NCBI GenBank assembly: GCA_001784175.1
Contig: MFPR01000004.1
Location: 62,001 to 126,000 of the forward strand
Reading direction: 5' to 3'
DNA from: Candidatus Lindowbacteria bacterium RIFCSPLOWO2_12_FULL_62_27
Lineage (GTDB): Bacteria > Lindowbacteria > 2-12-FULL-62-27
DNA length: 64,000 nt
Part shown: positions 2 to 37,916 of the stretch, one piece after another
How the letters are laid out: each line of letters begins with the position of its first letter
Position numbering within the stretch: position 1 is the stretch's first letter
Program-made: the position numbers and the translations under genes
The notes under the pieces: generated by a model
What the model saw: the letters and a program-made list of their open reading frames with translations, nothing else
Database searches by the model: none
What the model was told of the DNA's origin: nothing

Positions 2-580
2 GCGGCCGTGCAGTTTCCGCTGTCGACCACGCCGGGATTTTTCGGCATGGGCGCCGTCCTGTCGCCGTCCAATATATGGCATTGGAAGGCGGACATTCAG
101 GCGGACATCGATCTCCGAAAGGCGGACCACCGGCGCCGGGACGTCGAAACCGCCTATCCCAACATGGCGGCCGACGCGTATCCGTTTTTGGGCAAGGATT
201 GGAGCGGCGCCGCGCATGACGACCGGCGGCGGCCCGCAAAAGATTATGACGACCCCGCGTTCCTCACGGCCTGGGCGGCCGACAATCCCCTCGCCGATCC
301 CGAACGGAAAAGTCCCTGCACCGAATACAACGCCGAAGGACCCGGCAGCCTGACGGTCCAGCCGCATGGCCATCAGAGCATCAACGGCGCCGGCGTCTGG
401 CGCGGCGGCGTCTGGACGCTCGTGCTCCTGCACGAGCTGCACTCCGGCGACGAGATGGACGCGATGTTCACGATGGGCGACGAGCGGCCGGTGGCGTTCG
501 CGATCTGGGACGGCGCCGCCGGCGACCGCGACGGCCAGAAGGTCGTGTCGCAGTGGCACAAGATGGTGCTGCGGCCGTGA
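2..580 (+). CDS. DMSO reductase type II heme-b (gamma) subunit / EB_dh domain protein, NxrC-like; 5'-truncated by window edge
   Basis: AAVQFP...FFGMG...NIWHWKAD...G.G.W..G.W.LV...VAFAIWDGAAGDRDGQK motifs of EbdC/NxrC-type subunits; frame is open to the window start. Confidence 0.75.
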   Translation, partial: AAVQFPLSTTPGFFGMGAVLSPSNIWHWKADIQADIDLRKADHRRRDVETAYPNMAADAYPFLGKDWSGAAHDDRRRPAKDYDDPAFLTAWAADNPLADPERKSPCTEYNAEGPGSLTVQPHGHQSINGAGVWRGGVWTLVLLHELHSGDEMDAMFTMGDERPVAFAIWDGAAGDRDGQKVVSQWHKMVLRP

Positions 581-1503
581 AATCCGAAATCCGTAATCTG
601 AAATCCGCACAGCCGTGTCCGTTGGTCACCTACGACCCGGCGCTGATCGAGGCCCTCGTCCGGTCGAAGGTCGATGCGGCGGCGGACGCGGATCAGAGCT
701 GGATCAACGCCTACCGGGACGAGCTGGACGACATCTATGAGCGCAGCCCGGAAGAGCGCGAATCGCTCTTCGCCTCCCTGGATCGCCGCTATTTTCAGCG
801 CGTCGGCATTCCGGCGATTGTGGAGGAGTGCCTTGCGGAGCGCGCCGGGGCGCTGCCCAAAACATGCAATGTGACCATGCTGTCGGCACAAGACCGGTCG
901 GAAGAGGGCGCGGACGTAAACCGCGCCGGCCAGATGATCCTGCGCTTCCGGACCGCGACGCTGGCCGACTCGGAAAAATTTCGGCGGCGGCTGCGCAGGG
1001 AGATTGTCCAGGCGGCCGATTGTTTCAACCCGGAATTCGGCCATGCCCCGGAATTGCTGGACGCGCTGCTTCCATCCGAAAGAGAGCGCATCCGCGCGGC
1101 CCTGACCCTGCTCTGGGCGCTGACGGCGCAGATTCGGCTCTGCGCCGAGGAACCGTTGAAGACCGGCGCAACCGCGCAGGTTGAGAAAGAACGCCTGGAC
1201 CGGCTGGCCGCGGATCTGCGCGCCGCGCTGTGCGGCGACGCCCATGCGCCGCTGGCCGAACTTCTCCAGGACCTCCCGGCTCGGCCGCCGGCCTTCGGCC
1301 GGATGCTTGAGTTTTGCCGCCGGCACGCGGGCTCGGAGGCCGCGGCCTCCGGCATCTGCGATCTCTGCCGCTTTCCCTCCGAGGACGTTCAGACGTTGAG
1401 CGTCCTGCCGGACAACGTCCGCCGGGCGCTGACAGCGGAATTTACGTCACTCCAAAATATGTCACACGTCTGCGCACGCTGCGCCGAACGGTCCGCGATA
1501 TGA
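577..1503 (+). CDS. Hypothetical protein with C-terminal CxxC...CxxC (putative Zn finger), nxr-cluster associated
   Basis: GTG overlaps the upstream stop (GTGA); its stop overlaps the nxrA ATG; CDLCRFP...VCARC. Confidence 0.7.
   Translation: MKSEIRNLKSAQPCPLVTYDPALIEALVRSKVDAAADADQSWINAYRDELDDIYERSPEERESLFASLDRRYFQRVGIPAIVEECLAERAGALPKTCNVTMLSAQDRSEEGADVNRAGQMILRFRTATLADSEKFRRRLRREIVQAADCFNPEFGHAPELLDALLPSERERIRAALTLLWALTAQIRLCAEEPLKTGATAQVEKERLDRLAADLRAALCGDAHAPLAELLQDLPARPPAFGRMLEFCRRHAGSEAAASGICDLCRFPSEDVQTLSVLPDNVRRALTAEFTSLQNMSHVCARCAERSAI
580..607 (+). repeat. 4 x 7-bp tandem repeat (AAATCCG-like) encoding KSEIRNLKS
   Basis: aaatccg aaatccg taatctg aaatccg. Confidence 0.7.
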
Positions 1504-4500
1504 CCTGGTCCGTATCCCGCCGCGCGTTCCTCCAGGCCGGCAGCCTCGCCGCGCTCCTCGCCGCCTGCGGCAAATCCAATCTCCGCCAGCTCAAAGGCAT
1601 CGTGGGCGTCGAGAACCCGCTCGAATATTATCCGGAACGCGGCTGGGAAAAAGTCTATCGGGACCAGTACCGGTACGACCGTTCCTTCACCTACGTGTGC
1701 TCTCCGAACGACACCCACGCCTGCCGCGTGCGGGCCTTTGTTCGAAACGGCGTGATCGTCCGCGTCGAGCAGAATTACGACATCCAGAATTACGCCGACC
1801 TCTACGGCAACAAGGCCACGCGCAACTGGAACCCGCGGATGTGCCCCAAGGGCATGACGTTCCCCCGCCGCGTCTACGGGCCCTACCGCCTCAAGCAACC
1901 GCTCATGCGGAAGGGCTGGAAGGCATGGGCGGACGACGGCTTTCCGTATCTGACGGCGGCGCTTCGGACCAAATACAAATTCGACAGCCGCGGCGCGGAC
2001 GAATTTCTGCGCGTGTCGTGGGACGAGGCGTTTGGATACGCGGCGCGCGGATTCGTGGCGATCGCGAAACACTACAGCGGCGACGGAGGCCAGCGGCGGC
2101 TTCTGTCCGAGGGATACGCGCCGGAGATGGTGCGGGCGATGGAGGGCGCGGGAACGCGCACGATCAAGACCCGTGGCGGGATGGGCCTCCTCGGCGTCAT
2201 CGGCAAATACGGCATGTACCGCTTCTGCAACACGCTGGCCTTGGTCGACGCGCACGTGCGCGGCGCGGACAGGGAACACGCCAAGGCCGGCCGCGTCTGG
2301 GACAATTACACCTGGCACGGCGATCAGGCCCCGGGCCACCCCTTCGTCCACGGCATCCAGACCTCCGACTGCGATTTCAACGACCTCCGCTTCACCAAAC
2401 TGCACATCCAGTGCGGCAAAAATCTCGTCGAAAACAAAATGCCCGACTCCCACTGGTTCATCGAAACCCTCGAACGCGGCGCCAAGATCGTCGTCATCAC
2501 GCCCGAGTACAGCCCGCCGGCCACCAAGGCCGATTACTGGATCCCGATCCGGCCCAACAGCGACACGGCACTCTTCCTGGGCATCACCAAACTTCTCATC
2601 GACGGGAAAAAATATGACTCGCGATTCGTCAAACGCCACACCGATTTCCCCTTGCTGGTCCGGACCGACACGCTCACCCGCCTCAAGGCCGCGGACGTTT
2701 TCCCCGGCTACAAGAACCGCGATCTTCACGGGGGGCCCAGCTACGAAGTCCAGGGCCTGACGGACGATCAGCGCGAGAAACTGGGGGATTATGTGGTCTG
2801 GGATTTGAAGCGAGGCGCGCCGGCGCCCGTCACGCGGGATGACGTCGGCGGAGTCTATGACAAACTGGGCGTCGACGCGGCCTTGGAGGGAAAATTCGAC
2901 GTCACATTGACGGACGGCCGCAGCATCCAGGTCATGCCGCTGTTTGAGATGTACAAGGTACACCTCCGCGATTACGATCTCGACAGCGTCCATGAAATGA
3001 CCAACGCGCCCAAGGAACTCGTGCGGCGGCTCGCCGACGACATCGCCACCATCAAACCGGCCGCCGTCCATGTCGGCGAAGGCATCAACCACTGGTTCCA
3101 CGCAACGCTCGTCAACCGCGCGACGTATCTGCCGCTCATGCTGACCGGCAACATCGGCCTTCCCGGCGCCGGGTCGCATACGTGGGCGGGAAACTACAAG
3201 GCCGCGAATTTCCAGGCGGCGCCGTGGTGCGGCAAGGGATTCAAAACATGGATCGCGGAGGATCCCTTCGAGCCGAACCTCGATCCGAACACGGACGGCA
3301 AGGACATCCACGTGCACTCCTACACCCGCGACGAGGCGGTCGCCTACTGGAACCACGGCGACAAACCCCTGGTGGTCGACACGCCGAAATACGGCCGGAA
3401 AATGTTCACCGGAAAATCACACATGCCGACGCCCACCAAGGCCATCTGGTACACGAACGTCAATCTCATCAACAACGCCAAATGGGCCTACGAGATGATC
3501 AAGAACGTCGATCCCAAGGTCGACATGATCCTGTCGAACGACATCCAGATGACGGCAAGCATCGAATACTCGGACTTCGCCTTTCCGGCCAATTCGTGGT
3601 GCGAGACGAAGACTGCCGAGATCACCAACTCCTGCTCGAATCCTTTCCTCCAGATCTGGAAGGGCGGCATCGAGCCGCTCTATGATTCGCGCGACGACGT
3701 GATGATCCTCGCGGGCATGGCCAAGGCCGTCGGCGACGCGATCGGCGACAAGCGGTGCGAGGAGTACTGGAAATTCGCGCTGGAAGGCCGGCCGGAGGTG
3801 TATATTCAGCGGCTCCTCGACGCGTCCTCCACCCTGCGCGGCTACAAATACGAAGACATCATGGCCGGAAAATACGGCGAGCCCGGCGTGTGCCTCATGC
3901 TGTACCGGACGTACCCGCGTATTCCGTTTTACGAGCAGGTCCACGAGGACCATCCGTTCTGGACCGACACGGGACGCCTGAACGCCTACTGCGACATTCC
4001 GGACGCGATCGAGCACGGAGAAAATTTCATCGTCCACCGGGAAGGACCCGAGGGGACGCCCTACTTGCCGAACTGCATCGTAAGTTCGAATCCGTTCATC
4101 CGGCCGGACGATTTCGGCATCCCCGAAACCGAAATGCACTGGGACGCGCGGCATGTCCGCAACATCAAAAAGCCGTGGCCGCAGGTCGTCCGCACCGTGA
4201 ACCCGCTCTGGGCCCGGGGATACCGCTTTTTCTGCCTGACCCCGAAAACCCGCCACCGCGTCCATTCGCAGTGGAGCGACACCGACTGGAACCTCATCTG
4301 GGACTCGAATTTCGGCGACCCGTACCGCGCCGACAAGCGAATGCCCGGTGTGGGCGAGCACCAGCTTCACATGAACCCGCAGACCGCGCGCGACCTCGGG
4401 ATCAACGACGGCGACTACGTCTACGTCGACGCCAATCCGGCCGACCGGCCCTACATCGGCTGGAGCCCGACCGACCCGTTCTACCGCGTGGCGCGACTGA

Positions 4501-4961
4501 TGCTGCGCGTGAAATACAATCCGGCCTATCCGTACCACACGGTCATGATGAAACACGCGCCGTACATTGCGACCGAGCGCAGCGTCAAGGCGCACGAGAC
4601 GCGGCCGGACGGCCGGGCGCTGTCGGCCGGCACCGGATATCAGGCCAACCTTCGATATGGCTCCCAGCAGTCGATCACGCGCTCCTGGCTCATGCCGATG
4701 CACCAGACCGACACGCTGTTTCACAAAACCAAAATCGGCATGGCGTTCATGTTCGGCGGCGAGGCCGACAACCACATGATCAACACGACGCCCAAGGAAA
4801 CGCTCGTCAAGATCACCAAGGCCGAGCCCGGCGGGATCGGCGGCAAGGGCATCTGGGCGCCGGCGACCTCCGGGTTCACGCCGGGCAACGAAAGCCCGGC
4901 GATGCTGTCCTACCTGACCGGCGACCTGACGAAGGTTCAAGGGGGCGGCAACCATGCCTGA
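1500..4961 (+). CDS. nxrA: Nitrite oxidoreductase / nitrate reductase alpha subunit (periplasmic anammox/Nitrospira type, Mo-bisPGD)
   Basis: Tat motif SRRAFL; NPLEYYPERGWEKVYRDQY; FS0 motif CSPNDTHAC...MCPKG with Asp; NYTWHGDQAPGHPF Mo-ligand region; TPKTRHRVHSQW. Confidence 0.92.
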   Translation: MTWSVSRRAFLQAGSLAALLAACGKSNLRQLKGIVGVENPLEYYPERGWEKVYRDQYRYDRSFTYVCSPNDTHACRVRAFVRNGVIVRVEQNYDIQNYADLYGNKATRNWNPRMCPKGMTFPRRVYGPYRLKQPLMRKGWKAWADDGFPYLTAALRTKYKFDSRGADEFLRVSWDEAFGYAARGFVAIAKHYSGDGGQRRLLSEGYAPEMVRAMEGAGTRTIKTRGGMGLLGVIGKYGMYRFCNTLALVDAHVRGADREHAKAGRVWDNYTWHGDQAPGHPFVHGIQTSDCDFNDLRFTKLHIQCGKNLVENKMPDSHWFIETLERGAKIVVITPEYSPPATKADYWIPIRPNSDTALFLGITKLLIDGKKYDSRFVKRHTDFPLLVRTDTLTRLKAADVFPGYKNRDLHGGPSYEVQGLTDDQREKLGDYVVWDLKRGAPAPVTRDDVGGVYDKLGVDAALEGKFDVTLTDGRSIQVMPLFEMYKVHLRDYDLDSVHEMTNAPKELVRRLADDIATIKPAAVHVGEGINHWFHATLVNRATYLPLMLTGNIGLPGAGSHTWAGNYKAANFQAAPWCGKGFKTWIAEDPFEPNLDPNTDGKDIHVHSYTRDEAVAYWNHGDKPLVVDTPKYGRKMFTGKSHMPTPTKAIWYTNVNLINNAKWAYEMIKNVDPKVDMILSNDIQMTASIEYSDFAFPANSWCETKTAEITNSCSNPFLQIWKGGIEPLYDSRDDVMILAGMAKAVGDAIGDKRCEEYWKFALEGRPEVYIQRLLDASSTLRGYKYEDIMAGKYGEPGVCLMLYRTYPRIPFYEQVHEDHPFWTDTGRLNAYCDIPDAIEHGENFIVHREGPEGTPYLPNCIVSSNPFIRPDDFGIPETEMHWDARHVRNIKKPWPQVVRTVNPLWARGYRFFCLTPKTRHRVHSQWSDTDWNLIWDSNFGDPYRADKRMPGVGEHQLHMNPQTARDLGINDGDYVYVDANPADRPYIGWSPTDPFYRVARLMLRVKYNPAYPYHTVMMKHAPYIATERSVKAHETRPDGRALSAGTGYQANLRYGSQQSITRSWLMPMHQTDTLFHKTKIGMAFMFGGEADNHMINTTPKETLVKITKAEPGGIGGKGIWAPATSGFTPGNESPAMLSYLTGDLTKVQGGGNHA

Positions 4962-6258
4962 CGTCTACAACTGGCATCTCGGCCGGAAAATGTCGTATCC
5001 ATACGAGGAGGCGCATCCGCGCCGGCAGTTCGCGTTCGTGTTCAACATCAACCGCTGCATCGCCTGCCAGACCTGCACGATGTCCTGCAAGTCGACATGG
5101 ACATTCTCCAAGGGCCAGGAATACATGTGGTGGAACAACGTCGAAACAAAACCCTACGGCGGCTACCCAAAATTCTGGGACGTCAAACTCCTCTCAATGC
5201 TCGACGCCGCCAATCCCGGCGGGCAGGTGTGGGACGCGGCGGTCCAAAATGGCCCGTCGAAACCGTACGGTCTCTTCAACGGCATGACCATTTTCGAAGC
5301 GGCCCGAAAACAGTTCGGCCCCGCCGGCCACAATCACGCGATCGGATTCATCCCCGACGAAGAGGCATGGCGCGGCCCCAACCACGGCGAGGACGCGGCG
5401 GTCACGTTCGAGGACAGCTACCGCAAGGCCAGCGCGGCCCGCCCGATCTCGGCCGAAGGATCCGCCCTGCCGGAACACCGCACCTGGTTTTTCTATCTTC
5501 AGAGGCTGTGCAATCACTGCACCTACCCGGCGTGCCTCGCGGCCTGCCCGCGAAAGGCGATCTACAAACGCGAAGAGGACGGCATCGTGCTGATCGACCA
5601 GGAACGCTGCCGCGGATACCGCAAGTGCGTGGAGGCCTGCCCCTACAAAAAGCCGATGTACCGCGGCACCACGCGGGTTTCGGAAAAATGTATCGGATGT
5701 TATCCGCGAATCGAGGGCAAGGACCCCATTTCAGAGGGCCGCCCGATGGAAACCCGCTGCATGACCGCCTGCGTCGGCCAGATTCGTCTCCAGGGTCTGG
5801 TGAACATTGACGAAAAAACGGGCTTGTGGGCCAACGACCGCCAGAATCCCATCTACTATCTCGTTCACGTCGAAAAAATCGCCCTCCCGCTCTACCCGCA
5901 GTTCGGGACGGAACCCAACGGGTACTACATCCCGCCGCGATGGGTGCCCCGGCCGTACCTGAGGCAGATGTTCGGCCCGGGCGTCGACGCCGCGATTGAA
6001 AAATACGTCGCACCGAACCGCGAACTCCTCGCGGTCCTCCAGTTGTTCCGCAAACATCAGGACATCGTCTTCCGATACGAGATCGAGGAGGGGAAGAAAG
6101 TCTACGAGCGGGAAATCGACTACCGCGGCCGGAAAATCCCGTTCACGCTCTACAACGACACCGTCATCGCCTTCGACGCGGCCGGCAAGGAAATCTTCCG
6201 CACGGCCGTCGAAGAACCCATCCACGTCCGGCCGGCGAAACACTCCAATTCGGTCTGA
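4954..6258 (+). CDS. nxrB: Nitrite oxidoreductase / nitrate reductase beta subunit (Fe-S)
   Basis: VYNWHLGRKMSYPY; CIACQTCTMSC, CNHCTYPACLAAC, CRGYRKCVEAC, CIGC...CMTAC; PLYPQFGTEPN. Confidence 0.93.
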   Translation: MPDVYNWHLGRKMSYPYEEAHPRRQFAFVFNINRCIACQTCTMSCKSTWTFSKGQEYMWWNNVETKPYGGYPKFWDVKLLSMLDAANPGGQVWDAAVQNGPSKPYGLFNGMTIFEAARKQFGPAGHNHAIGFIPDEEAWRGPNHGEDAAVTFEDSYRKASAARPISAEGSALPEHRTWFFYLQRLCNHCTYPACLAACPRKAIYKREEDGIVLIDQERCRGYRKCVEACPYKKPMYRGTTRVSEKCIGCYPRIEGKDPISEGRPMETRCMTACVGQIRLQGLVNIDEKTGLWANDRQNPIYYLVHVEKIALPLYPQFGTEPNGYYIPPRWVPRPYLRQMFGPGVDAAIEKYVAPNRELLAVLQLFRKHQDIVFRYEIEEGKKVYEREIDYRGRKIPFTLYNDTVIAFDAAGKEIFRTAVEEPIHVRPAKHSNSV

Positions 6259-6259
6259 C

Positions 6260-6955
6260 ATGGAAAACGCCATCCGCTCCGCCCATCTTCGCACCGCCGT
6301 CTACGAATTGTTCGGACGGATTCTGTCCGCGCCCGATCCCGAACACGGCCGGCGCGCCCTTCAAATCGCGTTCACCCTCGGGCGCATCGAGAGCCTCCCG
6401 GCCGGGTTGCGGCGCCGGTTCGGCGAATTCACCGACACCCTCGCCCGGCTGGGACTCAACGAAATCGAGCGCGACTGGCAGGAAACGTTCGGCCTGACCG
6501 ACGGAGGGCCCTTCAGCCTCTGCGAGAGCGAGTATGGCATGGCGCACATTTTTCAAAAATCCAACCGGCTGGCCGACATCTCCGGATTCTACAGGGCGTT
6601 CGGCGTGGAGCCCCGGGCCGGCGCGGAGCGCCCGGACCACCTGAGCGTCGAGTTCGAGTTCCTTTCGTTTCTGGCCGCCAAGGAGGCCCACGCTCTGTTG
6701 GAGAACAGGACGGACCGCGCCGAAGTTTCACGCGAGGCCGAACGGATGTTTTTGTCTGATCACACAGGCCATTTCTGCGTGGGACTCTTCAAGCGATTGG
6801 TGGACGGCCAGGGATTCTATGCCTCCGTCAGCCGGCTCGGCTTGGAGGCCATCGAGTGGATATTCTCTCAACTGAGCATCTCCGAGCCCTGCCAAGCCGC
6901 GCTCGCCGGCGCGATGGGTCCCGAAGAACCCATGCAATGCGGCGGCTGCAGATGA
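6260..6955 (+). CDS. TorD/DmsD-family molybdoenzyme maturation chaperone
   Basis: ESEY...LADISGFYRAFG...ERPDHLSVEFEFL motif; starts 1 nt after the nxrB stop. Confidence 0.85.
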   Translation: MENAIRSAHLRTAVYELFGRILSAPDPEHGRRALQIAFTLGRIESLPAGLRRRFGEFTDTLARLGLNEIERDWQETFGLTDGGPFSLCESEYGMAHIFQKSNRLADISGFYRAFGVEPRAGAERPDHLSVEFEFLSFLAAKEAHALLENRTDRAEVSREAERMFLSDHTGHFCVGLFKRLVDGQGFYASVSRLGLEAIEWIFSQLSISEPCQAALAGAMGPEEPMQCGGCR

Positions 6956-7227
6956 AAAATCTCGATCCGGAGGACCCCTTCAGCCTGACCGGTCACGCGG
7001 TGGCGCTCAGCGCCGAAGAGGCGGAAGAACACTTGATCGAAATGACCGATACGATCATCCACGAGTTCACGCTCCTCGGCTGGACACCGGAGAGAATACT
7101 CGGCATGTTCAATAATCCGTTTTATCGCATGCCGCACGAGATTCTCCGCAGCCGTGGCGCATCGTTCGTTCAGTCCCGCATGGCCGCGGTCACAGGAATC
7201 GACCTTACAGAACTTGTTACGAATTAA
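6952..7227 (+). CDS. Small hypothetical protein (DPEDP...EF...G...F.NPFY)
   Basis: ATGA overlap with the chaperone gene; last gene of the nxr operon. Confidence 0.7.
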   Translation: MKNLDPEDPFSLTGHAVALSAEEAEEHLIEMTDTIIHEFTLLGWTPERILGMFNNPFYRMPHEILRSRGASFVQSRMAAVTGIDLTELVTN

Positions 7228-7333: not shown

Positions 7334-7383
7334 GACTCTCTCTCTTGGCTTGTTTTTTTAGACACACGAGGAGGCGACCGCAG

Positions 7384-9219
7384 GTGTATCGAAAGACGGG
7401 GATCACGTCGGACATGACGGTGAGAGAAATACTCAAAATGTTCCCGGCAAGCCGCGCCGTATTTGACAAGTATGGAATGATGGGGTGCGGTGGAGCGGAG
7501 GGACCGGCGGAACCGGTGTCATTTTTTGCCGAGATGCACGGGCTCACCACGGCGGAACTTCTGTCGGAGCTTCGAAGCGCCCTGCAATCGAACGGCGACC
7601 CCTGCCGTTGCGGGCCTGCGGCCGCAGGCGATATTTCGCCTCGCGCGGCGGGATTGCTTTCGGCCCCTGATCCGAATCCAGAAGGCTCCAAATGCACGCA
7701 CGGCGATCAATCCAAACGGTTGGCGAGGACGTTCATCCGGACGGCCCTCGTTGTTTTTCTGGCCTATGGCGGCGCCGTGGGCGCGTGGGCGTTCCTCTCT
7801 CTGGTAACGCCTGGCGTTTCTCTTCCCTCGGTCCTGACGTGGCCGGCGCTGGTGCAATCGCATGCACACGCGCAAATCGTCGGCTTCGCGGCGATGTTCA
7901 TCTTCGGCATTTCCTATCACGTCATGCCGAGATTCATGGGCGTGCCCCTTCAAAATGTCGCGGCCGCATGGGTCTCCTTCGGTCTGCTTCTCGGAGGAAT
8001 GATCCTGCGATGCCTGTACCAGCCTTTCGCGCACCACACGGCGGCCGGCGTCACGGCGCTTCTCGGGTCGGCCATGGAGGTGGGCGCGGCGGTTGCATAT
8101 CTGACCGTGGTCCGCGCGACCCTGCGGGAACACAAGCGGACTTTGGCGCCCGGCAGGGCAGGCCAGCCGTTCGTTCACGTCGCGTATCTGATCATCGGAA
8201 GCCTCGCGCTGCTGGCCTCCACGCTCGTGGTCCTCGCCGGGTCCGTGTTCATGCTCGTCCGGCAGGTCAACCTCCAACCGCCGCATCTTAATATGGTATG
8301 GATCCATCTCTCGGTCGTCGGATTCGCCGGGATGTTCATCTTCGGCGTCGGCCAGCGCACGATGCCCCATTTCCTCGGGCTCGAACACACCCGCCCGGCC
8401 GCCGGCAAGGCGGCGCTGGTGCTCTTGACCATCGGCCTCCTTTTACAGATTGCAACGCTCGCGATCCCGGCGCAAAAAATTCTCTCGGCCGGCTCGGCGC
8501 TCTTTGAGCTTGCCGGATTCATTTTTGTCTTATTGGCGGTGCCGCTCTTCGGTCGTCTCCCCGTCCATCGGCCGGCGGCGCCGCCTCTTTTTGCCTTATT
8601 CGTCCGTACCGCCTTCGCGTGGGGATTGGCGGGCAGCGCCGGCTTCGCGGCCGTCGCCATCGCCGAGGCCGCCGGCGCCGTGCCTTCGAGAGTGATCGTC
8701 GACGCCTGCCGCCACGCATGGACGCTGGGATTCATGACAACGCTGATCGTCGGCGTCGCCTACCGCCTCGTGCCGATTTTTTTCGGAAGGGAAATCCATC
8801 GGCCCGGCTGGATCCCCGTGATTTACGCCGTCCTCACGGCGGCCGTGGCAATCCGTGTCGGCGCGGATATCGCGTCCCTGTGGGCGCCCGCCGTCTATCC
8901 CTGGACGGCCGTCTCCGGCCTGCTGGTTCTCTCGGCTGTGTTACACTTCACCATCGAAATCTGGAGGCTGACCGCCCGCGACCGTGCGGCCGCCGACCTG
9001 CCGCGCGGCGAAATCAGCGACGCCTCCAACGTCGGTGCGGTGCTCGAAGCCCATCCGGAACTGTTACCGGTGTTCCTCCGCCATGGCTTTGGCGCCCTTC
9101 AGAATCCCGTCGCCCGCAAGACCGTCGCGCGGTTCGTCACGATCGGCCAGGCGGCCCGGAAACACGGCGTCGACACTGCACACCTCATCCACGAACTCAA
9201 CAGCGCGCTTCAGCCGTAG
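7384..9219 (+). CDS. NnrS-like multi-pass membrane protein flanked by N- and C-terminal DUF1858/ScdA-N-like domains
   Basis: GAGGAGG RBS; ITSDMTVREIL..FP...VF..YG..GC; HAHAQIVGF, HL..VGF and RHAWTLGF His-bearing TM helices; C-terminal V..VL..HPEL..VF...GF..L.NP..R.T. Confidence 0.75.
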   Translation: MYRKTGITSDMTVREILKMFPASRAVFDKYGMMGCGGAEGPAEPVSFFAEMHGLTTAELLSELRSALQSNGDPCRCGPAAAGDISPRAAGLLSAPDPNPEGSKCTHGDQSKRLARTFIRTALVVFLAYGGAVGAWAFLSLVTPGVSLPSVLTWPALVQSHAHAQIVGFAAMFIFGISYHVMPRFMGVPLQNVAAAWVSFGLLLGGMILRCLYQPFAHHTAAGVTALLGSAMEVGAAVAYLTVVRATLREHKRTLAPGRAGQPFVHVAYLIIGSLALLASTLVVLAGSVFMLVRQVNLQPPHLNMVWIHLSVVGFAGMFIFGVGQRTMPHFLGLEHTRPAAGKAALVLLTIGLLLQIATLAIPAQKILSAGSALFELAGFIFVLLAVPLFGRLPVHRPAAPPLFALFVRTAFAWGLAGSAGFAAVAIAEAAGAVPSRVIVDACRHAWTLGFMTTLIVGVAYRLVPIFFGREIHRPGWIPVIYAVLTAAVAIRVGADIASLWAPAVYPWTAVSGLLVLSAVLHFTIEIWRLTARDRAAADLPRGEISDASNVGAVLEAHPELLPVFLRHGFGALQNPVARKTVARFVTIGQAARKHGVDTAHLIHELNSALQP

Positions 9220-9267: not shown

Positions 9268-11703
9268 ATGTCTGAAACCGTTCTCATCCTCTCGGGCCTT
9301 CTGGCCGTCGGCTTTCTGACGATCCAGCTCGCGCGGTCGATGAACATTCCGCACTCCGTGTTCCTGGTCATCATCGGCGGCGCGGCGGGACTCACCATCC
9401 GCGCGGTTCATCCGGAGTGGGTCCGGGGCGTCTCGGAGGCGTTTCCCGGGATCATCCTGTACGTTCTTCTGCCGCCGCTGATTTTCGAGTCGGCCTACAA
9501 CATGGATTTCTCGGCGTTGAAAAAGGACGTGCTGCCGATCACGGTCCTCGCCGTGATCGGACTCATCATCTCTGCCGTCCTCATCGGCTCGGGGATGCAT
9601 CTGTTCCTTGGGTTCCCCCTCATGGCCTGCCTGCTCTTTGGCGCATTCATGTCCGCCACGGACCCGGTGGCGGTGGTGGCGCTCTTCAAGGAACTGGGCG
9701 CGCCCAAGCGGCTGACGATGCTGGTCGAGGGCGAGAGCCTCTTCAACGACGGCTCGGCCATCGTGTTGTTCCAGGTCCTGCTGGCCGCCGCGATGGCGCC
9801 GGCGATGCCGGTGGGTGCGGGGATGGTGGGGACGATCTGCAAGAGTTTCATCATCGTCTTTTTCGGCGGCGTGCTGGTCGGTCTGGTCATCGCCGTGATA
9901 ACGAGCTGGCTGCTCAAGATGATCCCGACCGGCAGCGGCCAGATGGGCATGACCGTCGCGGCCGCCTACCTGAGCTTCATCGTGGCCGACCACGTCTTTC
10001 ACGTCAGCGGCGTCATGAGCACCGTGCCGGTCGGCCTGTATCTTGGCAACCGCGCGCGGCTCGAGTTCAACAAGGAAGCGCTTCACGGCATGCATTACCT
10101 GTGGGAGTTTCTGGCCCTCGCGGCCAACATCATCGTTTTCTTCGGCGTCGGCCTCACCGTCGAGCCGAAGGTCTTGCGGGAATGCTTGAAATACATCCCG
10201 GCCGTCCTCTTCATCGCCTACGCCGCACGCACCCTGTCCGTGGTCCTCACGGTGCCCGTCATGAACCGGTTCAAGATGACCGAATACATTTCCGGTTCCT
10301 ATCAGGGCATCCTCATCTGGGGGGGACTGCGCGGCGGCCTCGCGCTTGCGCTCGTGCTGCTCCTGCAGGATTCGTTCGAGTACAAGCAGTTGTTCCTGGG
10401 ACTCGCCACCAGCGTGGTTCTGGCGACCCTCCTCATCAACGCGCTCACGATCAAAACGGCGATGAAGCTTTTTGGGCTCAGCAAGCTGACCGACCAGGAG
10501 GAGAACCTGTTCATGCGGACCATCCACAAACTCCAGCATCACCTGTACCCGCCGCTTTTTCGCGCCGCTGAGGACGGCAGCCTCTCCAACGCCCTCGTCA
10601 ACCGCAGCCGCGCCGACGCGGAGGAGGCCTTAAAGGACTACTCGGTCGCGCGGCCGGAGACGGACAGCGAGCGGTTTGATTTCGAGTTCAGAAACCTCAT
10701 GCTGTCCGAAAAATCCTATTACGACGAGAAGCTGGAAGACGGCATCCTGTCGAAAACGGCCTATCGACGGCTCATCCGCATCATCCAGCAGCGCTTTGAC
10801 GCCTACTGGACTGGAGGGAACCTCGCCCTGTTCGAATACAAGTTTCCGCTGCTGGAAAAGGAGCGCGCTTCGTCACGATTCTTCTCGGCCATCGCGCCGC
10901 AAACCTACCACAAACTCCGCATCCGCCGGCTCACCCGCGTCCTCGAGGAGTGCCTCCACCTGCGGTTCGCCATCCGCGAGGCGTTGACCGACGTCGAACA
11001 CGAGGAGGCCCGGAAACTGGCCGACGGATGGCTGGAGCAGATCGCGGACCGGCTCCATTATTTCTTCACGCTCTACCCCAGCTACGCCAATTCGATCCAG
11101 TCCCTCTACATCGCCAACACGCTGGCGGCCTCGGCGGAAAAGACACTCGACACATACATGAATCTCAACCTCATCACCGGCGGCGTCTACGCGAGGGCCC
11201 GCCAGTACGTGGAAGACCTGCGCCGGCGCGAGGTGTCGTCGTCCCGCGCCTATCTCAATCCGTCGATCGTCTACCTCCTCAAACATGTCCCGCTCTTTTC
11301 GCGGCTGCCCGACGCCGTCCTCGTCGAGGTCGCCGCGGCGGCCAAAATCCTCGAATTGCCCCCGGGCGCGCAGGTGGTCCGCGAGGGCGAGGCCGGCGAT
11401 TCGATTTATCTGCTGACGGCCGGGATGCTGAAAGTGACGGGGACGCGCGTGGCGAAGACCAAATCGCACAAGCTCTTTGCCGGAGACGCCATCGGCGACC
11501 CGACCCTCCTCACGGGCGATTTCTTCGGCGAGATGTCGCTCCTCCGCAAGGCGCCCCGCAGCGCCACCGTCACGACCGTGACGGACGCGACGATCGTCGA
11601 GATCAGCTACGCGGAGGTGGAGAAGATGATGGGGAATTTTCCTGAAGTTAGAAAAACGATTGAGGCCGGGGCGCAACAACGGATGGCGGCGCAGACCGCC
11701 TGA
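9268..11703 (+). CDS. CPA1 (NhaP-like) Na+/H+ antiporter with C-terminal cyclic-nucleotide-binding domain
   Basis: LLPPLIFESA, SATDPVAV, EGESLFNDG, WGGLRGG; C-terminal VPLF...REGE.GD...FFGEMSLL...PRSATV. Confidence 0.9.
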   Translation: MSETVLILSGLLAVGFLTIQLARSMNIPHSVFLVIIGGAAGLTIRAVHPEWVRGVSEAFPGIILYVLLPPLIFESAYNMDFSALKKDVLPITVLAVIGLIISAVLIGSGMHLFLGFPLMACLLFGAFMSATDPVAVVALFKELGAPKRLTMLVEGESLFNDGSAIVLFQVLLAAAMAPAMPVGAGMVGTICKSFIIVFFGGVLVGLVIAVITSWLLKMIPTGSGQMGMTVAAAYLSFIVADHVFHVSGVMSTVPVGLYLGNRARLEFNKEALHGMHYLWEFLALAANIIVFFGVGLTVEPKVLRECLKYIPAVLFIAYAARTLSVVLTVPVMNRFKMTEYISGSYQGILIWGGLRGGLALALVLLLQDSFEYKQLFLGLATSVVLATLLINALTIKTAMKLFGLSKLTDQEENLFMRTIHKLQHHLYPPLFRAAEDGSLSNALVNRSRADAEEALKDYSVARPETDSERFDFEFRNLMLSEKSYYDEKLEDGILSKTAYRRLIRIIQQRFDAYWTGGNLALFEYKFPLLEKERASSRFFSAIAPQTYHKLRIRRLTRVLEECLHLRFAIREALTDVEHEEARKLADGWLEQIADRLHYFFTLYPSYANSIQSLYIANTLAASAEKTLDTYMNLNLITGGVYARARQYVEDLRRREVSSSRAYLNPSIVYLLKHVPLFSRLPDAVLVEVAAAAKILELPPGAQVVREGEAGDSIYLLTAGMLKVTGTRVAKTKSHKLFAGDAIGDPTLLTGDFFGEMSLLRKAPRSATVTTVTDATIVEISYAEVEKMMGNFPEVRKTIEAGAQQRMAAQTA

Positions 11704-37512: not shown

Positions 37513-37916
37513 GTGCGGGGGTGTTCAGGGCGTCGCTCCTTTCGCTTTGGGCGGAGGGAGAGGAAAGTCCGAGCGCCGCGTGGCCCCGTCCGATGGCGGG
37601 GTGGATGGTCGCTAACGGCGACCGGTCGAGTGGGAGGTCAATCGGGCTAAACCCGAAAGACTTCAAACGAAGATCAGGGAAAGTGCCACAGAAATCAAAC
37701 CGCTCTCCGGAGTTCCGCGGCGCCTCAACGGGCGACGCGGAGGGGAGCAAGGGTGAAACGGGGAGGTAAGAGCTCACCGCCCTGATGGTGACATCGGGGG
37801 CACGGCAAACCCCATCCGGCGCAAGACCCTCTTTGGGTCGCTCGAATCCGCCCGTAAGGGCGGATCCAGAGAAATGACGTCCCACGACAGAACTCGGCTT
37901 ACGAACACCCCCGCAC
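37513..37916 (+). ncRNA. rnpB: RNase P RNA
   Basis: GAGGAAAGTCC, AGTGCCACAGAAA, GGGTGAAAC, GGCAAACCC, ACAGAACTCGGCTTA; P1 gtgcgggggtgttc/gaacacccccgcac. Confidence 0.96.

What the first reader, a model, noticed from the sequence alone, without database searches (positions are those of the whole stretch)
2..7227. Anammox/Nitrospira-type NXR operon in an unusual genomic background
Seen: six tightly coupled genes (EB_dh heme subunit, Zn-finger hypothetical, alpha, beta, TorD chaperone, small hypothetical). The alpha subunit has a Tat signal, the CxxxDxxxC FS0 motif and NYTWHGDQAPGHPF. Known: these features mark the periplasmic NXR clade of anammox, Nitrospira and Nitrospina rather than cytoplasmic NarG. 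Inference: the other genes (spoVG, cheX, SufU-type Suf, atypical rnpB) do not point to a classic nitrifier. This could be an unrecognised nitrite oxidiser or a nitrate reducer using NXR in reverse. Direction cannot be read from sequence.
Basis: partly seen in the sequence, partly recalled or inferred. Interest (0 to 1): 0.78.

Follow-up and report, generated by a model that had tools for sequence, protein, structure and literature searches.

The report
Periplasmic NXR operon in a Lindowbacteria genome
An uncultured groundwater bacterium that is neither a nitrifier nor an anammox bacterium carries a complete operon for the outward-facing nitrite/nitrate enzyme of those organisms, but the same enzyme occurs in many other uncultured bacteria, so this is an ordinary new member of a known kind.

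Summary
Six translationally coupled genes encode a periplasmic NXR-type nitrite/nitrate oxidoreductase. NxrA scores 1880 bits over its full length against Kuenenia NxrA (PDB 7B04). It keeps every published FS0, substrate and Mo ligand and sits inside the Brocadiaceae/Nitrospinaceae clade in two trees.

- The gamma gene is cut by the window edge. It is a 513-aa fusion of a dihaem cytochrome c with EB_dh.
- The "Zn-finger hypothetical" and the small ORF are conserved NXR-operon genes, found in 45 and 26 of 80 related loci.

The host belongs to a four-species phylum labelled Candidatus Lindowbacteria, and 3 of the 4 genomes carry this NxrA. I found no hydrazine synthase, RuBisCO or acetyl-CoA synthase. 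The genome does hold two aa3 oxidases, NapA, NrfHA and an arsenite oxidase locus.

The "unusual background" is usual for this clade. Close homologues (64-76% identical) carry labels of about 18 phylum-level groups, published surveys report the same, and this scan has noted such operons in 14 other genomes.

Direction remains unreadable. I favour cytochrome c-dependent nitrate reduction (about 0.45) over supplementary nitrite oxidation (about 0.35).

Lineage-specific points are lipobox signals on NxrA and gamma, a rearranged gene order, and loss of the HExxH histidines in the accessory protein.

The parts
2..580 (+). 3' part of the gamma subunit gene (NxrC-like). The full gene starts 962 nt before the window (G000:C4:61039). 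It encodes 513 aa: lipoprotein signal (VSAC|G), two cytochrome c domains (CAPCH at residue 35, CAKCH at residue 153) and a haem-b EB_dh domain.
   Evidence: Pfam gives Cytochrome_CBB3 87 bits (2 stretches) and EB_dh 82 bits. The dihaem part scores 206 bits to PDB 6H5L chain B and the EB_dh part 100-102 bits to KsNxrC 7B04_C. The KsNxrC haem ligands M155 and K305 align to M and K.
553..1503 (+). It has a helical zincin-like domain plus a C-terminal CxxC...CxxC ribbon. The family motif RHELxHxxDM reads RREIVQAADC here.
   Evidence: No Pfam or NCBIfam family. Homologues lie in 45 of 80 related loci, including Brocadiaceae. Alignment A1 has invariant E150, D156, C269, C272, C307 and C310. The AF2 model has pLDDT 89.9. 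Fold matches are weak only, repeatedly to HExxH peptidase folds.
1500..4961 (+). NxrA, the catalytic Mo-bisMGD subunit (1153 aa), with a Tat signal (SRRAFL) followed by a lipobox (LLAAC|G).
   Evidence: 1880 bits to KsNxrA 7B04_B over residues 5-1147, against 214 bits to PcrA, 153 to EbdA and 105 to NarG. C67, N70, D71, C75, C115 and D275 are conserved. Tree placement. Single copy in the genome.
4954..6258 (+). NxrB, the iron-sulfur subunit (434 aa).
   Evidence: 635 bits to KsNxrB 7B04_A over residues 4-434. DMSO_red_II_bet 256 bits. Fer4_11 84.5 bits.
6260..6955 (+). TorD/NarJ-family maturation chaperone (231 aa).
   Evidence: Nitrate_red_del 67.6 bits. DMSO_red_II_cha 54 bits, below its cut-off of 152. 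Homologues in NXR loci.
6952..7227 (+). Small conserved NXR-operon protein (91 aa) of unknown role. In most other lineages it lies between nxrA and nxrB.
   Evidence: Homologues in 26 of 80 loci. Alignment A2 has invariant D9, P10, M32, E39, G44, F54, P57 and G70. No family match.
7345..9219 (+). Downstream neighbour, possibly functionally linked but not shown to belong: an NnrS/COX1-like membrane protein flanked by two DUF1858 domains.
   Evidence: Pfam gives DUF1858 82 bits (2 stretches), NnrS 53.7 bits and COX1 25.8 bits. It lies 118 nt after the operon. No homologue was found near NXR in the 80 other loci.

Best explanation
The operon encodes a complete periplasmic NXR-type nitrite/nitrate oxidoreductase.

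Shown:
- NxrA (Tat-exported, Mo-bisMGD, Asp-ligated FS0), NxrB (FeS chain) and a gamma subunit whose high-potential haem-b domain (Met/Lys ligands) is fused to a dihaem cytochrome c.
- One TorD/NarJ chaperone and two conserved accessory proteins.

Inferred:
- NxrA and gamma both carry lipoboxes and the operon has no quinol-oxidising membrane subunit. The complex is therefore probably lipid-anchored on the outer face of the cytoplasmic membrane and exchanges electrons only with c-type cytochromes.
- The host is a facultatively aerobic member of the candidate phylum Lindowbacteria in which I found no autotrophy marker. It acquired the operon before three of the four sequenced genera diverged.

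Physiological direction (inferred, about 0.45): under anoxia, electrons run from quinol through a cytochrome b complex to cytochrome c, then through gamma and NxrB to NxrA and nitrate. This would be an energy-conserving nitrate reductase whose nitrite goes to NrfHA. The enzyme type is reversible, so nitrite oxidation under oxic conditions is not excluded.
For: Identity of the enzyme:
- NxrA scores 1880 bits, NxrB 635 bits and NxrC 100-102 bits to the three chains of 7B04.
- All ligands named by Chicano et al. (PMC8387239, passages read) are conserved.
- The IQ-TREE and FastTree trees place it with 100% support in the clade holding Brocadiaceae and Nitrospinaceae. SAR202/Gaiellaceae-type proteins (44-47% identical) form the sister group.

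Coupling to cytochrome c:
- Gamma carries two CxxCH motifs and matches 6H5L_B.
- No membrane subunit lies in the operon.

For the nitrate-reducing direction:
- NrfH (165 bits, above its cut-off of 134) and NrfA (458 bits to Pfam, five haem motifs) are present in G000.
- NrfA is also present in relative G002, where no NapA-like match was found.
- In my sample of 30 other NXR-bearing genomes, all 6 with NrfA lack both NapA and NarG.
- No RuBisCO or CdhC was found, and both controls rang.
- An NnrS/DUF1858 gene lies directly downstream.
- Four or more cytochrome b genes are available as quinol:cytochrome c links.
- Kuenenia NXR reduces nitrate about 25 times faster than it oxidises nitrite in vitro, with artificial partners.
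Against: - G000 already has a canonical NapA (979 bits, above its cut-off of 904). NXR is therefore not needed to feed NrfHA.
- Every characterised member of this tight clade comes from organisms that oxidise nitrite in vivo (PMC8387239).
- The genome holds two aa3-type cytochrome c oxidase operons and an aioBA arsenite oxidase locus. It is therefore already equipped to feed high-potential inorganic electrons to oxygen.
- 28 of the 30 sampled NXR-bearing genomes have a haem-copper oxidase. My earlier assumption that many carriers are oxidase-free anaerobes failed.
- No FNR-type box lies in the promoter region.
- Relative G003 has NXR but no NrfA was found there (88% complete).
- The lipoprotein status rests on sequence motifs only.
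Confidence: 0.45

Rival explanations
1. Supplementary (lithoheterotrophic) nitrite oxidation. When oxygen is present, nitrite is oxidised by NxrA. Electrons pass through NxrB, haem b and the fused dihaem cytochrome c to the aa3-type oxidases. This adds proton-motive force in a carbon-poor aquifer without any need for CO2 fixation.
For: - Membership of the clade whose studied members oxidise nitrite in vivo (PMC8387239).
- Two aa3 oxidase operons in G000, and oxidases in 4 of 4 genomes of the phylum.
- NapA is already present for nitrate reduction.
- An aioBA-cytochrome c-sensor kinase/sigma-54 regulator locus lies 29 kb upstream. It shows use of another periplasmic high-potential electron donor.
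- 28 of 30 sampled NXR-bearing genomes hold a haem-copper oxidase, while only 3 hold NapA and 2 hold NarG.
- PMC10732223 proposes the same for non-anammox Planctomycetota, whose NxrA is the nearest outside this lineage (76% identical).
Against: - No RuBisCO or acetyl-CoA synthase was found, whereas known nitrite oxidisers are autotrophs (my own knowledge).
- In a heterotroph the cytochrome c pool is kept reduced, which disfavours the uphill step from nitrite (+420 mV) to cytochrome c (my own reasoning).
- The aa3 oxidases are of the type generally regarded as low-affinity (my own knowledge).
- NrfHA and NnrS point to a nitrite-producing, low-oxygen lifestyle.
Confidence: 0.35
2. The enzyme acts on another oxyanion or substrate (chlorate, perchlorate, selenate, or a hydrocarbon as in EBDH) rather than nitrite or nitrate.
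For: Type II DMSO reductases have diverse substrates. NCBIfam places the subunits only at subfamily level and below the cut-offs.
Against: - The score to KsNxrA is 1880 bits, against 214 bits to perchlorate reductase and 153 bits to EbdA.
- The substrate-coordinating Asn70, which is Ile in EBDH according to PMC8387239, is conserved, as is the NXR-specific Asp ligand of FS0.
Confidence: 0.05
3. The operon is a binning or assembly contaminant and does not belong to the Lindowbacteria genome.
For: NxrA is 68-76% identical to proteins of other phyla, while DnaE from the same window falls to 34% outside the lineage.
Against: - The operon lies inside a 507,730-bp contig.
- GC is 0.60-0.66 across it, against 0.55-0.66 in the rest of the window.
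- Contamination is estimated at 1.09%.
- 90%-identical copies with the same lineage-specific gene order and lipobox occur in two other genera of the same family.
Confidence: 0.02

Closest known systems
Kuenenia stuttgartiensis NXR-ABC (kustd1700/1703/1704; PDB 7B04; Chicano et al. 2021, PMC8387239, passages read)
   Same: All three subunits match over their full or domain length at 1880, 635 and 100-102 bits. They share the Tat signal, the FS0 ligands C67/D71/C75/C115, Asn70, the Mo ligand Asp275 and the haem-b ligands Met/Lys. The Brocadiaceae operons also hold the TorD-like gene and the Cys-rich accessory gene.
   Different: - The anammox gamma is EB_dh only (about 324 aa); here a dihaem cytochrome c is fused to it.
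- Anammox NxrA has no lipobox in its signal peptide.
- Gene order differs: gamma-beta-delta-cys-alpha in Brocadiaceae, gamma-cys-alpha-beta-delta-small here.
- The anammox loci show no small ORF.
- The host has no hydrazine synthase.
- I did not look for an NXR-T tubule subunit.
NXR-type operons of non-anammox Planctomycetota, KSB1 and other MAGs (PMC10732223; groundwater MAGs in PMC9562985; ODZ MAGs in PMC10359470; passages read)
   Same: Nearest NxrA outside the lineage (76% identical, L006 and L057). They share the fused dihaem-EB_dh gamma (34 of 55 other loci with a gamma homologue), the small ORF and the Cys-rich accessory gene. Direction is equally unresolved, and the genomes likewise co-occur with oxidases and metal(loid) oxidases.
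   Different: - The usual order there is gamma-alpha-small-beta-delta-cys.
- The accessory protein keeps HExxH there.
- The canonical LAAC|G lipobox on NxrA is seen only in the three Lindowbacteria-lineage sequences, out of 71 rows inspected.
NXR of Nitrospina and Nitrospira (aerobic nitrite oxidisers)
   Same: A Nitrospinaceae MAG NxrA is 66% identical and lies in the same 100%-supported clade. PMC8387239 gives about 60% identity between Kuenenia and NOB homologues.
   Different: The host here shows no RuBisCO or acetyl-CoA synthase. The rTCA marker test was uninformative. No Nitrospira sequence was available to me, so that comparison was not made.
Thermogutta terrifontis Nar-type nitrate reductase plus NrfAH (PMC5673643, passage read; placed in the NXR-containing clade by PMC10732223)
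   Same: A cultured polysaccharide-degrading heterotroph that respires nitrate to ammonium with a deep-branching Nar/NXR-like enzyme, a TorD chaperone, a neighbouring bc complex and NrfAH. It is a functional analogue of the nitrate-reducing reading.
   Different: Its enzyme is described there as NarGHI with a NarI subunit and a cytoplasmic orientation. I did not compare its sequence with the window.
NapA and NarGHI, the canonical dissimilatory nitrate reductases
   Same: Same reaction in one direction. NarG, NarH and NarJ are distant homologues (105 bits for NarG, 183 bits for NarH).
   Different: - NarG faces the cytoplasm, uses a His ligand in FS0 and a NarI quinol oxidase (PMC8387239). None of these is present here.
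- A true NapA is encoded elsewhere on the same contig.

Membership tests
Periplasmic NXR clade (anammox / Nitrospina / Nitrospira type) | Twin-arginine signal on the alpha subunit | tested here: met
   MTWSVSRRAFLQ at the N-terminus. RR-x-F/L motifs align across the clade.
Periplasmic NXR clade (anammox / Nitrospina / Nitrospira type) | FS0 ligand set Cys-x3-Asp-x3-Cys...Cys (KsNxrA C67, D71, C75, C115) instead of the His/Cys set of NarG and EbdA | tested here: met
   CSPNDTHAC at residues 67-75 and C115. They align residue for residue with 7B04_B.
Periplasmic NXR clade (anammox / Nitrospina / Nitrospira type) | Substrate-coordinating Asn70 and Mo-ligand Asp275 | tested here: met
   N70 is present, and D275 lies in WHGDQAPGHPF.
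Periplasmic NXR clade (anammox / Nitrospina / Nitrospira type) | About 60% or more identity to KsNxrA (Nitrotoga/Hydrogenobaculum type about 40%, Nitrobacter/NarG type about 20%; PMC8387239) | tested here: met
   68-70% identical to Brocadia NxrA and 66-67% to Nitrospinaceae/Nitrospinota MAGs. 1880 bits to KsNxrA over residues 5-1147. Percent identity to Kuenenia itself was not printed.
Periplasmic NXR clade (anammox / Nitrospina / Nitrospira type) | Branches inside the clade in an NxrA tree with type II DMSO reductase outgroups | tested here: met
   FastTree with 71 rows: 59-row clade at 100. IQ-TREE quick with 38 rows: 31-row clade at 100. No Nitrospira, Nitrotoga or Nitrobacter sequence was available. 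The outgroups were unnamed representatives, labelled through.
Periplasmic NXR clade (anammox / Nitrospina / Nitrospira type) | NxrB and a haem-b EB_dh-type NxrC with Met/Lys ligation | tested here: met
   NxrB scores 635 bits to 7B04_A. M155 and K305 of KsNxrC align to M and K.
Periplasmic NXR clade (anammox / Nitrospina / Nitrospira type) | Nitrite-oxidising activity of the enzyme | not testable with these tools
   Needs enzyme assays or tracer work. No RNA run holds the sequence.
Chemolithoautotrophic nitrite-oxidising bacteria (the organism, not the enzyme) | A CO2-fixation pathway (CBB, rTCA or other) | tested here: inconclusive
   RuBisCO_large 0 matches (5 of 14 controls rang). CdhC 0 matches (2 controls rang). 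The ATP-citrate-lyase marker PF16114 rang nowhere, not even in two Nitrospinota MAGs, so rTCA is untested.
Chemolithoautotrophic nitrite-oxidising bacteria (the organism, not the enzyme) | A terminal oxidase able to accept electrons from cytochrome c | tested here: met
   Two CoxB-CtaD-subunit IV operons (CtaD 590 and 562 bits, below the equivalog cut-off of 670; Pfam COX1 454 and 435 bits).
Anammox bacteria | Hydrazine synthase | tested here: not met
   HZS_alpha gave 0 matches in G000, G002 and G003. The Brocadia pituitae genome gave 2 matches at 102 bits. G000 is 94% complete.
Respiratory NarGHI | Cytoplasmic alpha subunit, His-ligated FS0 and a NarI membrane subunit | tested here: not met
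   A Tat signal is present and Cys/Asp ligate FS0. TIGR01580 narG scores 135 bits against a cut-off of 1084. The operon holds no NarI-like gene.
Zincin (HExxH) metallopeptidase fold, considered for the Cys-rich accessory protein | HExxH metal site and a zincin-like fold | tested here: inconclusive
   The family consensus is RHELxHxxDM, but the window protein reads RREIVQAADC and its two closest relatives RRELIQ and RRELLQ. The best fold matches are weak: Foldseek E 0.038 to 4l7a, and VIA Z 5.1-5.9 to aminopeptidase, Wss1 and ChlB-HExxH domains, within the noise range the tool states. Atlas structural rows have TM 0.30-0.44.

The most novel reading that the evidence does not exclude
Members of the candidate phylum Lindowbacteria are lithoheterotrophs. 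They top up aerobic respiration with nitrite, and with arsenite, through periplasmic cytochrome c-coupled enzymes. That would be nitrite oxidation without autotrophy, in a phylum with no known physiology.

The two unnamed accessory genes, conserved from anammox bacteria to Acidobacteriota, would then be undescribed NXR maturation factors.
Probability: 0.3. Interest if true: 0.7.

Novelty: new member of a known kind. Interest (0 to 1): 0.35.

Why it matters
Nitrite oxidation is usually credited to a few specialist lineages, yet NXR-type genes are spread over many uncultured phyla and nobody knows which way they run there. This genome adds a near-complete (94%), low-contamination example from a phylum with four sequenced species and no described physiology. 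In it the enzyme sits on one contig with aa3 oxidase, NapA and arsenite oxidase genes.

It is a reasonable target for testing direction, and for assigning a role to the two accessory genes that accompany NXR even in anammox bacteria. On its own it does not change what is known.

Tried and rejected
- Complex prediction of the TorD-like chaperone with the Cys-rich accessory protein (alignments A3 and A1) gave no verdict, scores 0.01 and 0.00.
- The look-up of sequencing runs listed no RNA holder. There were 12 DNA runs from groundwater and soil metagenomes, 5 of them possible sources.
- An FNR/CRP box search (TTGATN4ATCAA, up to 2 mismatches) over the 18 kb ending in the start of nxrA gave 10 matches against 5.5 expected. 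None lay in the 180-bp promoter region.
- The ATP-citrate-lyase marker PF16114 rang in no control and in no Nitrospinota MAG, so the test is uninformative.
- BLASTP of G000's CoxA, CoxB, NrfA, NrfH, NnrS-like, bd-like and cytochrome b proteins against all ORFs of the 80 NXR loci (up to 8-kb flanks) found nothing at E 1e-8. There is no conserved local linkage.
- Fold searches for the accessory protein gave no Foldseek match at E 0.001 or below, and a VIA best Z of 6.0.
- I assumed that many NXR carriers are oxidase-free anaerobes. This was rejected: 28 of 30 sampled genomes have a COX1-family gene.
- The paper search for kustc0457 found nothing relevant. That 6H5L chain B is the dihaem partner of an HAO-like protein is my recollection. 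Searches show only that it is a Kuenenia cytochrome in an HAO entry.
- nirK gave 0 of 4 genomes. Cytochrom_D1 gave only 25-28-bit partial matches, which I do not accept as NirS.
- The supplements of PMC9562985 (Fig. S8a, Table S7) may list the NXR of the related MAG.
Full report
**Observation**

The region holds six co-directional genes with overlapping or abutting stops and starts:
- gamma, ending at 580
- a Cys-rich ORF, 553-1503
- NxrA, 1500-4961
- NxrB, 4954-6258
- a TorD/NarJ-like chaperone, 6260-6955
- a small ORF, 6952-7227

Pfam and NCBIfam assign four of them to the type II DMSO reductase system (EB_dh; DMSO_red_II_alp 348 bits; DMSO_red_II_bet 256 bits; Nitrate_red_del 67.6 bits). 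They leave the other two unnamed.

The window cuts the gamma gene. In the genome contig it starts 962 nt upstream and encodes 513 aa. These comprise a lipoprotein signal, two CxxCH cytochrome c domains and the EB_dh domain.

**What the enzyme is**

- NxrA matches Kuenenia NxrA (7B04_B) at 1880 bits over residues 5-1147. The next solved structures are perchlorate reductase at 214 bits, EbdA at 153 and NarG at 105.
- NxrB matches 7B04_A at 635 bits. The EB_dh part of gamma matches 7B04_C at 100-102 bits.
- The residues that Chicano et al. (PMC8387239; passages read) name are all conserved, at the same residue numbers in NxrA. These are the FS0 ligands C67/D71/C75/C115, Asn70, the Mo ligand Asp275, and the NxrC haem ligands Met155 and Lys305.
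- I built two trees with unnamed outgroups that I labelled through cluster names (SAR202, Gaiellaceae, Halorussus, Thermincola).
- In both trees the window protein joins its two 90%-identical relatives with 100% support.
- That trio sits in a 7-row set with non-anammox Planctomycetota and an Omnitrophota MAG (99% and 98% support).
- The set lies inside a 100%-supported clade that also holds Brocadiaceae and a Nitrospinaceae MAG (FastTree, 71 rows; IQ-TREE quick, 38 rows).
- Rows with fewer than 1000 aligned residues were dropped before the trees.
- No Nitrospira, Nitrotoga or Nitrobacter sequence was available to me.

**Host**

- The host's GTDB phylum holds four species genomes in one family. 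Three of the four carry this NxrA at 90% identity. The fourth is 91% complete with 6% contamination.
- One of the three matches a 5232-bp contig titled Candidatus Lindowbacteria.
- DnaE from the window has one identical entry and six relatives at 56-64% identity, then drops to about 34% among the 120 listed hits. The lineage is therefore deep and thinly sampled.
- The operon lies in a 507,730-bp contig with uniform GC.
- G000 is 94% complete with 1.09% contamination.

**Genome context**

| Feature searched | Result in G000 |
|---|---|
| Hydrazine synthase alpha | None in G000, G002 or G003; a Brocadia genome gave two 102-bit matches |
| RuBisCO large subunit | None; controls rang |
| CdhC (acetyl-CoA synthase) | None; controls rang |
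| ATP-citrate-lyase marker | Uninformative; rang nowhere |
| aa3-type cytochrome c oxidase | Two operons |
| bd-like protein fused to cytochrome c | One, next to a cytochrome b gene |
| Cytochrome b genes | At least four |
| NrfH and NrfA | Present |
| NapA | Present, 979 bits, above cut-off |
| PhsA-like and TtrA-like Mo enzymes | Present |
| aioB-aioA with cytochrome c, sensor kinase and sigma-54 regulator | Present, 29 kb upstream of the NXR operon |
| nirK | None in 4 of 4 genomes |

**How common this is**

- The 80 related loci from one-genome-per-species contigs carry record labels of about 18 phylum-level groups, at 64-76% identity outside the host's own lineage.
- Every gene of the window's operon recurs there. 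The Cys-rich gene is in 45 loci and the small ORF in 26.
- The dihaem-EB_dh fusion is present in 34 of the 55 other loci with a gamma homologue. Nineteen are EB_dh only, two of them contig-end fragments, and two are partial.
- Gene order follows lineage:
  - most lineages: gamma-alpha-small-beta-delta-cys
  - Brocadiaceae: gamma-beta-delta-cys-alpha
  - this lineage: gamma-cys-alpha-beta-delta-small
- PMC10732223, PMC9562985 and PMC10359470 (passages read) already report such genes in non-nitrifier MAGs and leave direction open.
- A search for Lindowbacteria together with nitrite found seven papers. I read passages in three of them, and none discusses the nitrogen metabolism of the phylum.
- The scan itself holds 14 similar findings.

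**Direction**

I sampled 30 of the 80 NXR-bearing genomes. I chose them for long contigs and varied labels, so they are not a random sample.

| Gene family | Genomes with a match (of 30) |
|---|---|
| COX1-family oxidase | 28 |
| NrfA | 6 |
| NapA | 3 |
| NarG | 2 |

None of the six NrfA carriers has NapA or NarG.

For nitrate reduction in this host:
- NrfHA is present.
- The NnrS/DUF1858 gene lies directly downstream.
- No autotrophy marker was found.
- Relative G002 has NXR and NrfA but no NapA match (81% complete).
- The reaction runs downhill from a reduced cytochrome c pool.

For nitrite oxidation:
- The characterised members of the clade oxidise nitrite in vivo.
- The genome has two aa3 oxidases.
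- NapA is already present.
- The arsenite oxidase locus shows use of another high-potential donor.

I put nitrate reduction at about 0.45 and nitrite oxidation at about 0.35, and regard the enzyme as reversible.

**Lineage-specific features**

- NxrA has a canonical lipobox (LLAAC|G) after its Tat motif only in the three Lindowbacteria-lineage sequences, out of 71 rows inspected. Gamma also has one.
- The Cys-rich accessory family carries a conserved RHELxHxxDM motif and two CxxC pairs. This lineage has lost both histidines.
- Its AF2 model is confident (pLDDT 89.9). Fold matches are weak and only hint at a zincin-like fold.

**Verdict**

This is a real and correctly recognised NXR-type operon in a non-nitrifier, and an ordinary new member of a widespread, already reported clade.

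Noticed in passing
G000:C4:29318-38998 (outside the window, 23-33 kb upstream of its start; L126:3318-12998): Arsenite oxidase locus. AioB (TIGR02694, 112.5 bits, above its cut-off) and AioA (TIGR02693, 428 bits, above its cut-off) are followed by a cytochrome c lipoprotein, a sensor kinase, a sigma-54-dependent response regulator and a 313-aa unassigned protein. Two MauG/MbnH-like dihaem enzymes lie just upstream.
   Followed up: partly
G000:C4:9131-18970 (L125): An aa3-type cox operon is followed directly by a canonical napA (979 bits), two unassigned small genes and a 736-aa protein with a DsrP/NrfD-like membrane domain (416 bits). This looks like an unusual Nap electron-input module.
   Followed up: partly
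L003:2295-14857 (G000:C4:48295-60857, just upstream of the operon): Arsenic-type genes: an LMWPc (ArsC-like) domain fused to an SBF/Acr3-like permease; an 844-aa radical SAM-SPASM-methyltransferase fusion; and a pyridine nucleotide-disulfide oxidoreductase.
   Followed up: no
G000:C6:249671-251063 (L098:389-2781): A 356-aa cytochrome b gene is followed by a 441-aa protein. Its N-terminal half matches cytochrome bd subunit I (43 bits, positions 5-190 of 418) and its C-terminus is a cytochrome c domain. A similar weak bd-I-like match occurs in all four genomes of the phylum. Such bd-like proteins are discussed as NXR partners elsewhere.
   Followed up: partly
L086 (G003:C365:3473-9922): A relative in the same family carries a second NxrA-like paralogue (42-43% identical). 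The search reported one in-frame TGA. It groups with the Gaiellaceae/SAR202-type sister clade.
   Followed up: partly
L003:15004-15041 (just before the gamma start codon): A sequence resembling a sigma-54 -24/-12 element (TGGACC-N5-TTGCA) and an inverted repeat TTGCA-N9-TGCAA overlap the start codon of the gamma gene. This could be chance.
   Followed up: no
L102:1312-2697 (G000:C10): NrfA here has five CxxCH motifs and no CxxCK at the first haem.
   Followed up: no
window 37517-37916: RNase P RNA class A at 212 bits, covering model positions 1-367 of 367.
   Followed up: yes
window 9268-11703: A Na+/H+ exchanger (195 bits) is fused to a C-terminal cyclic-nucleotide-binding domain (57 bits).
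   Followed up: no
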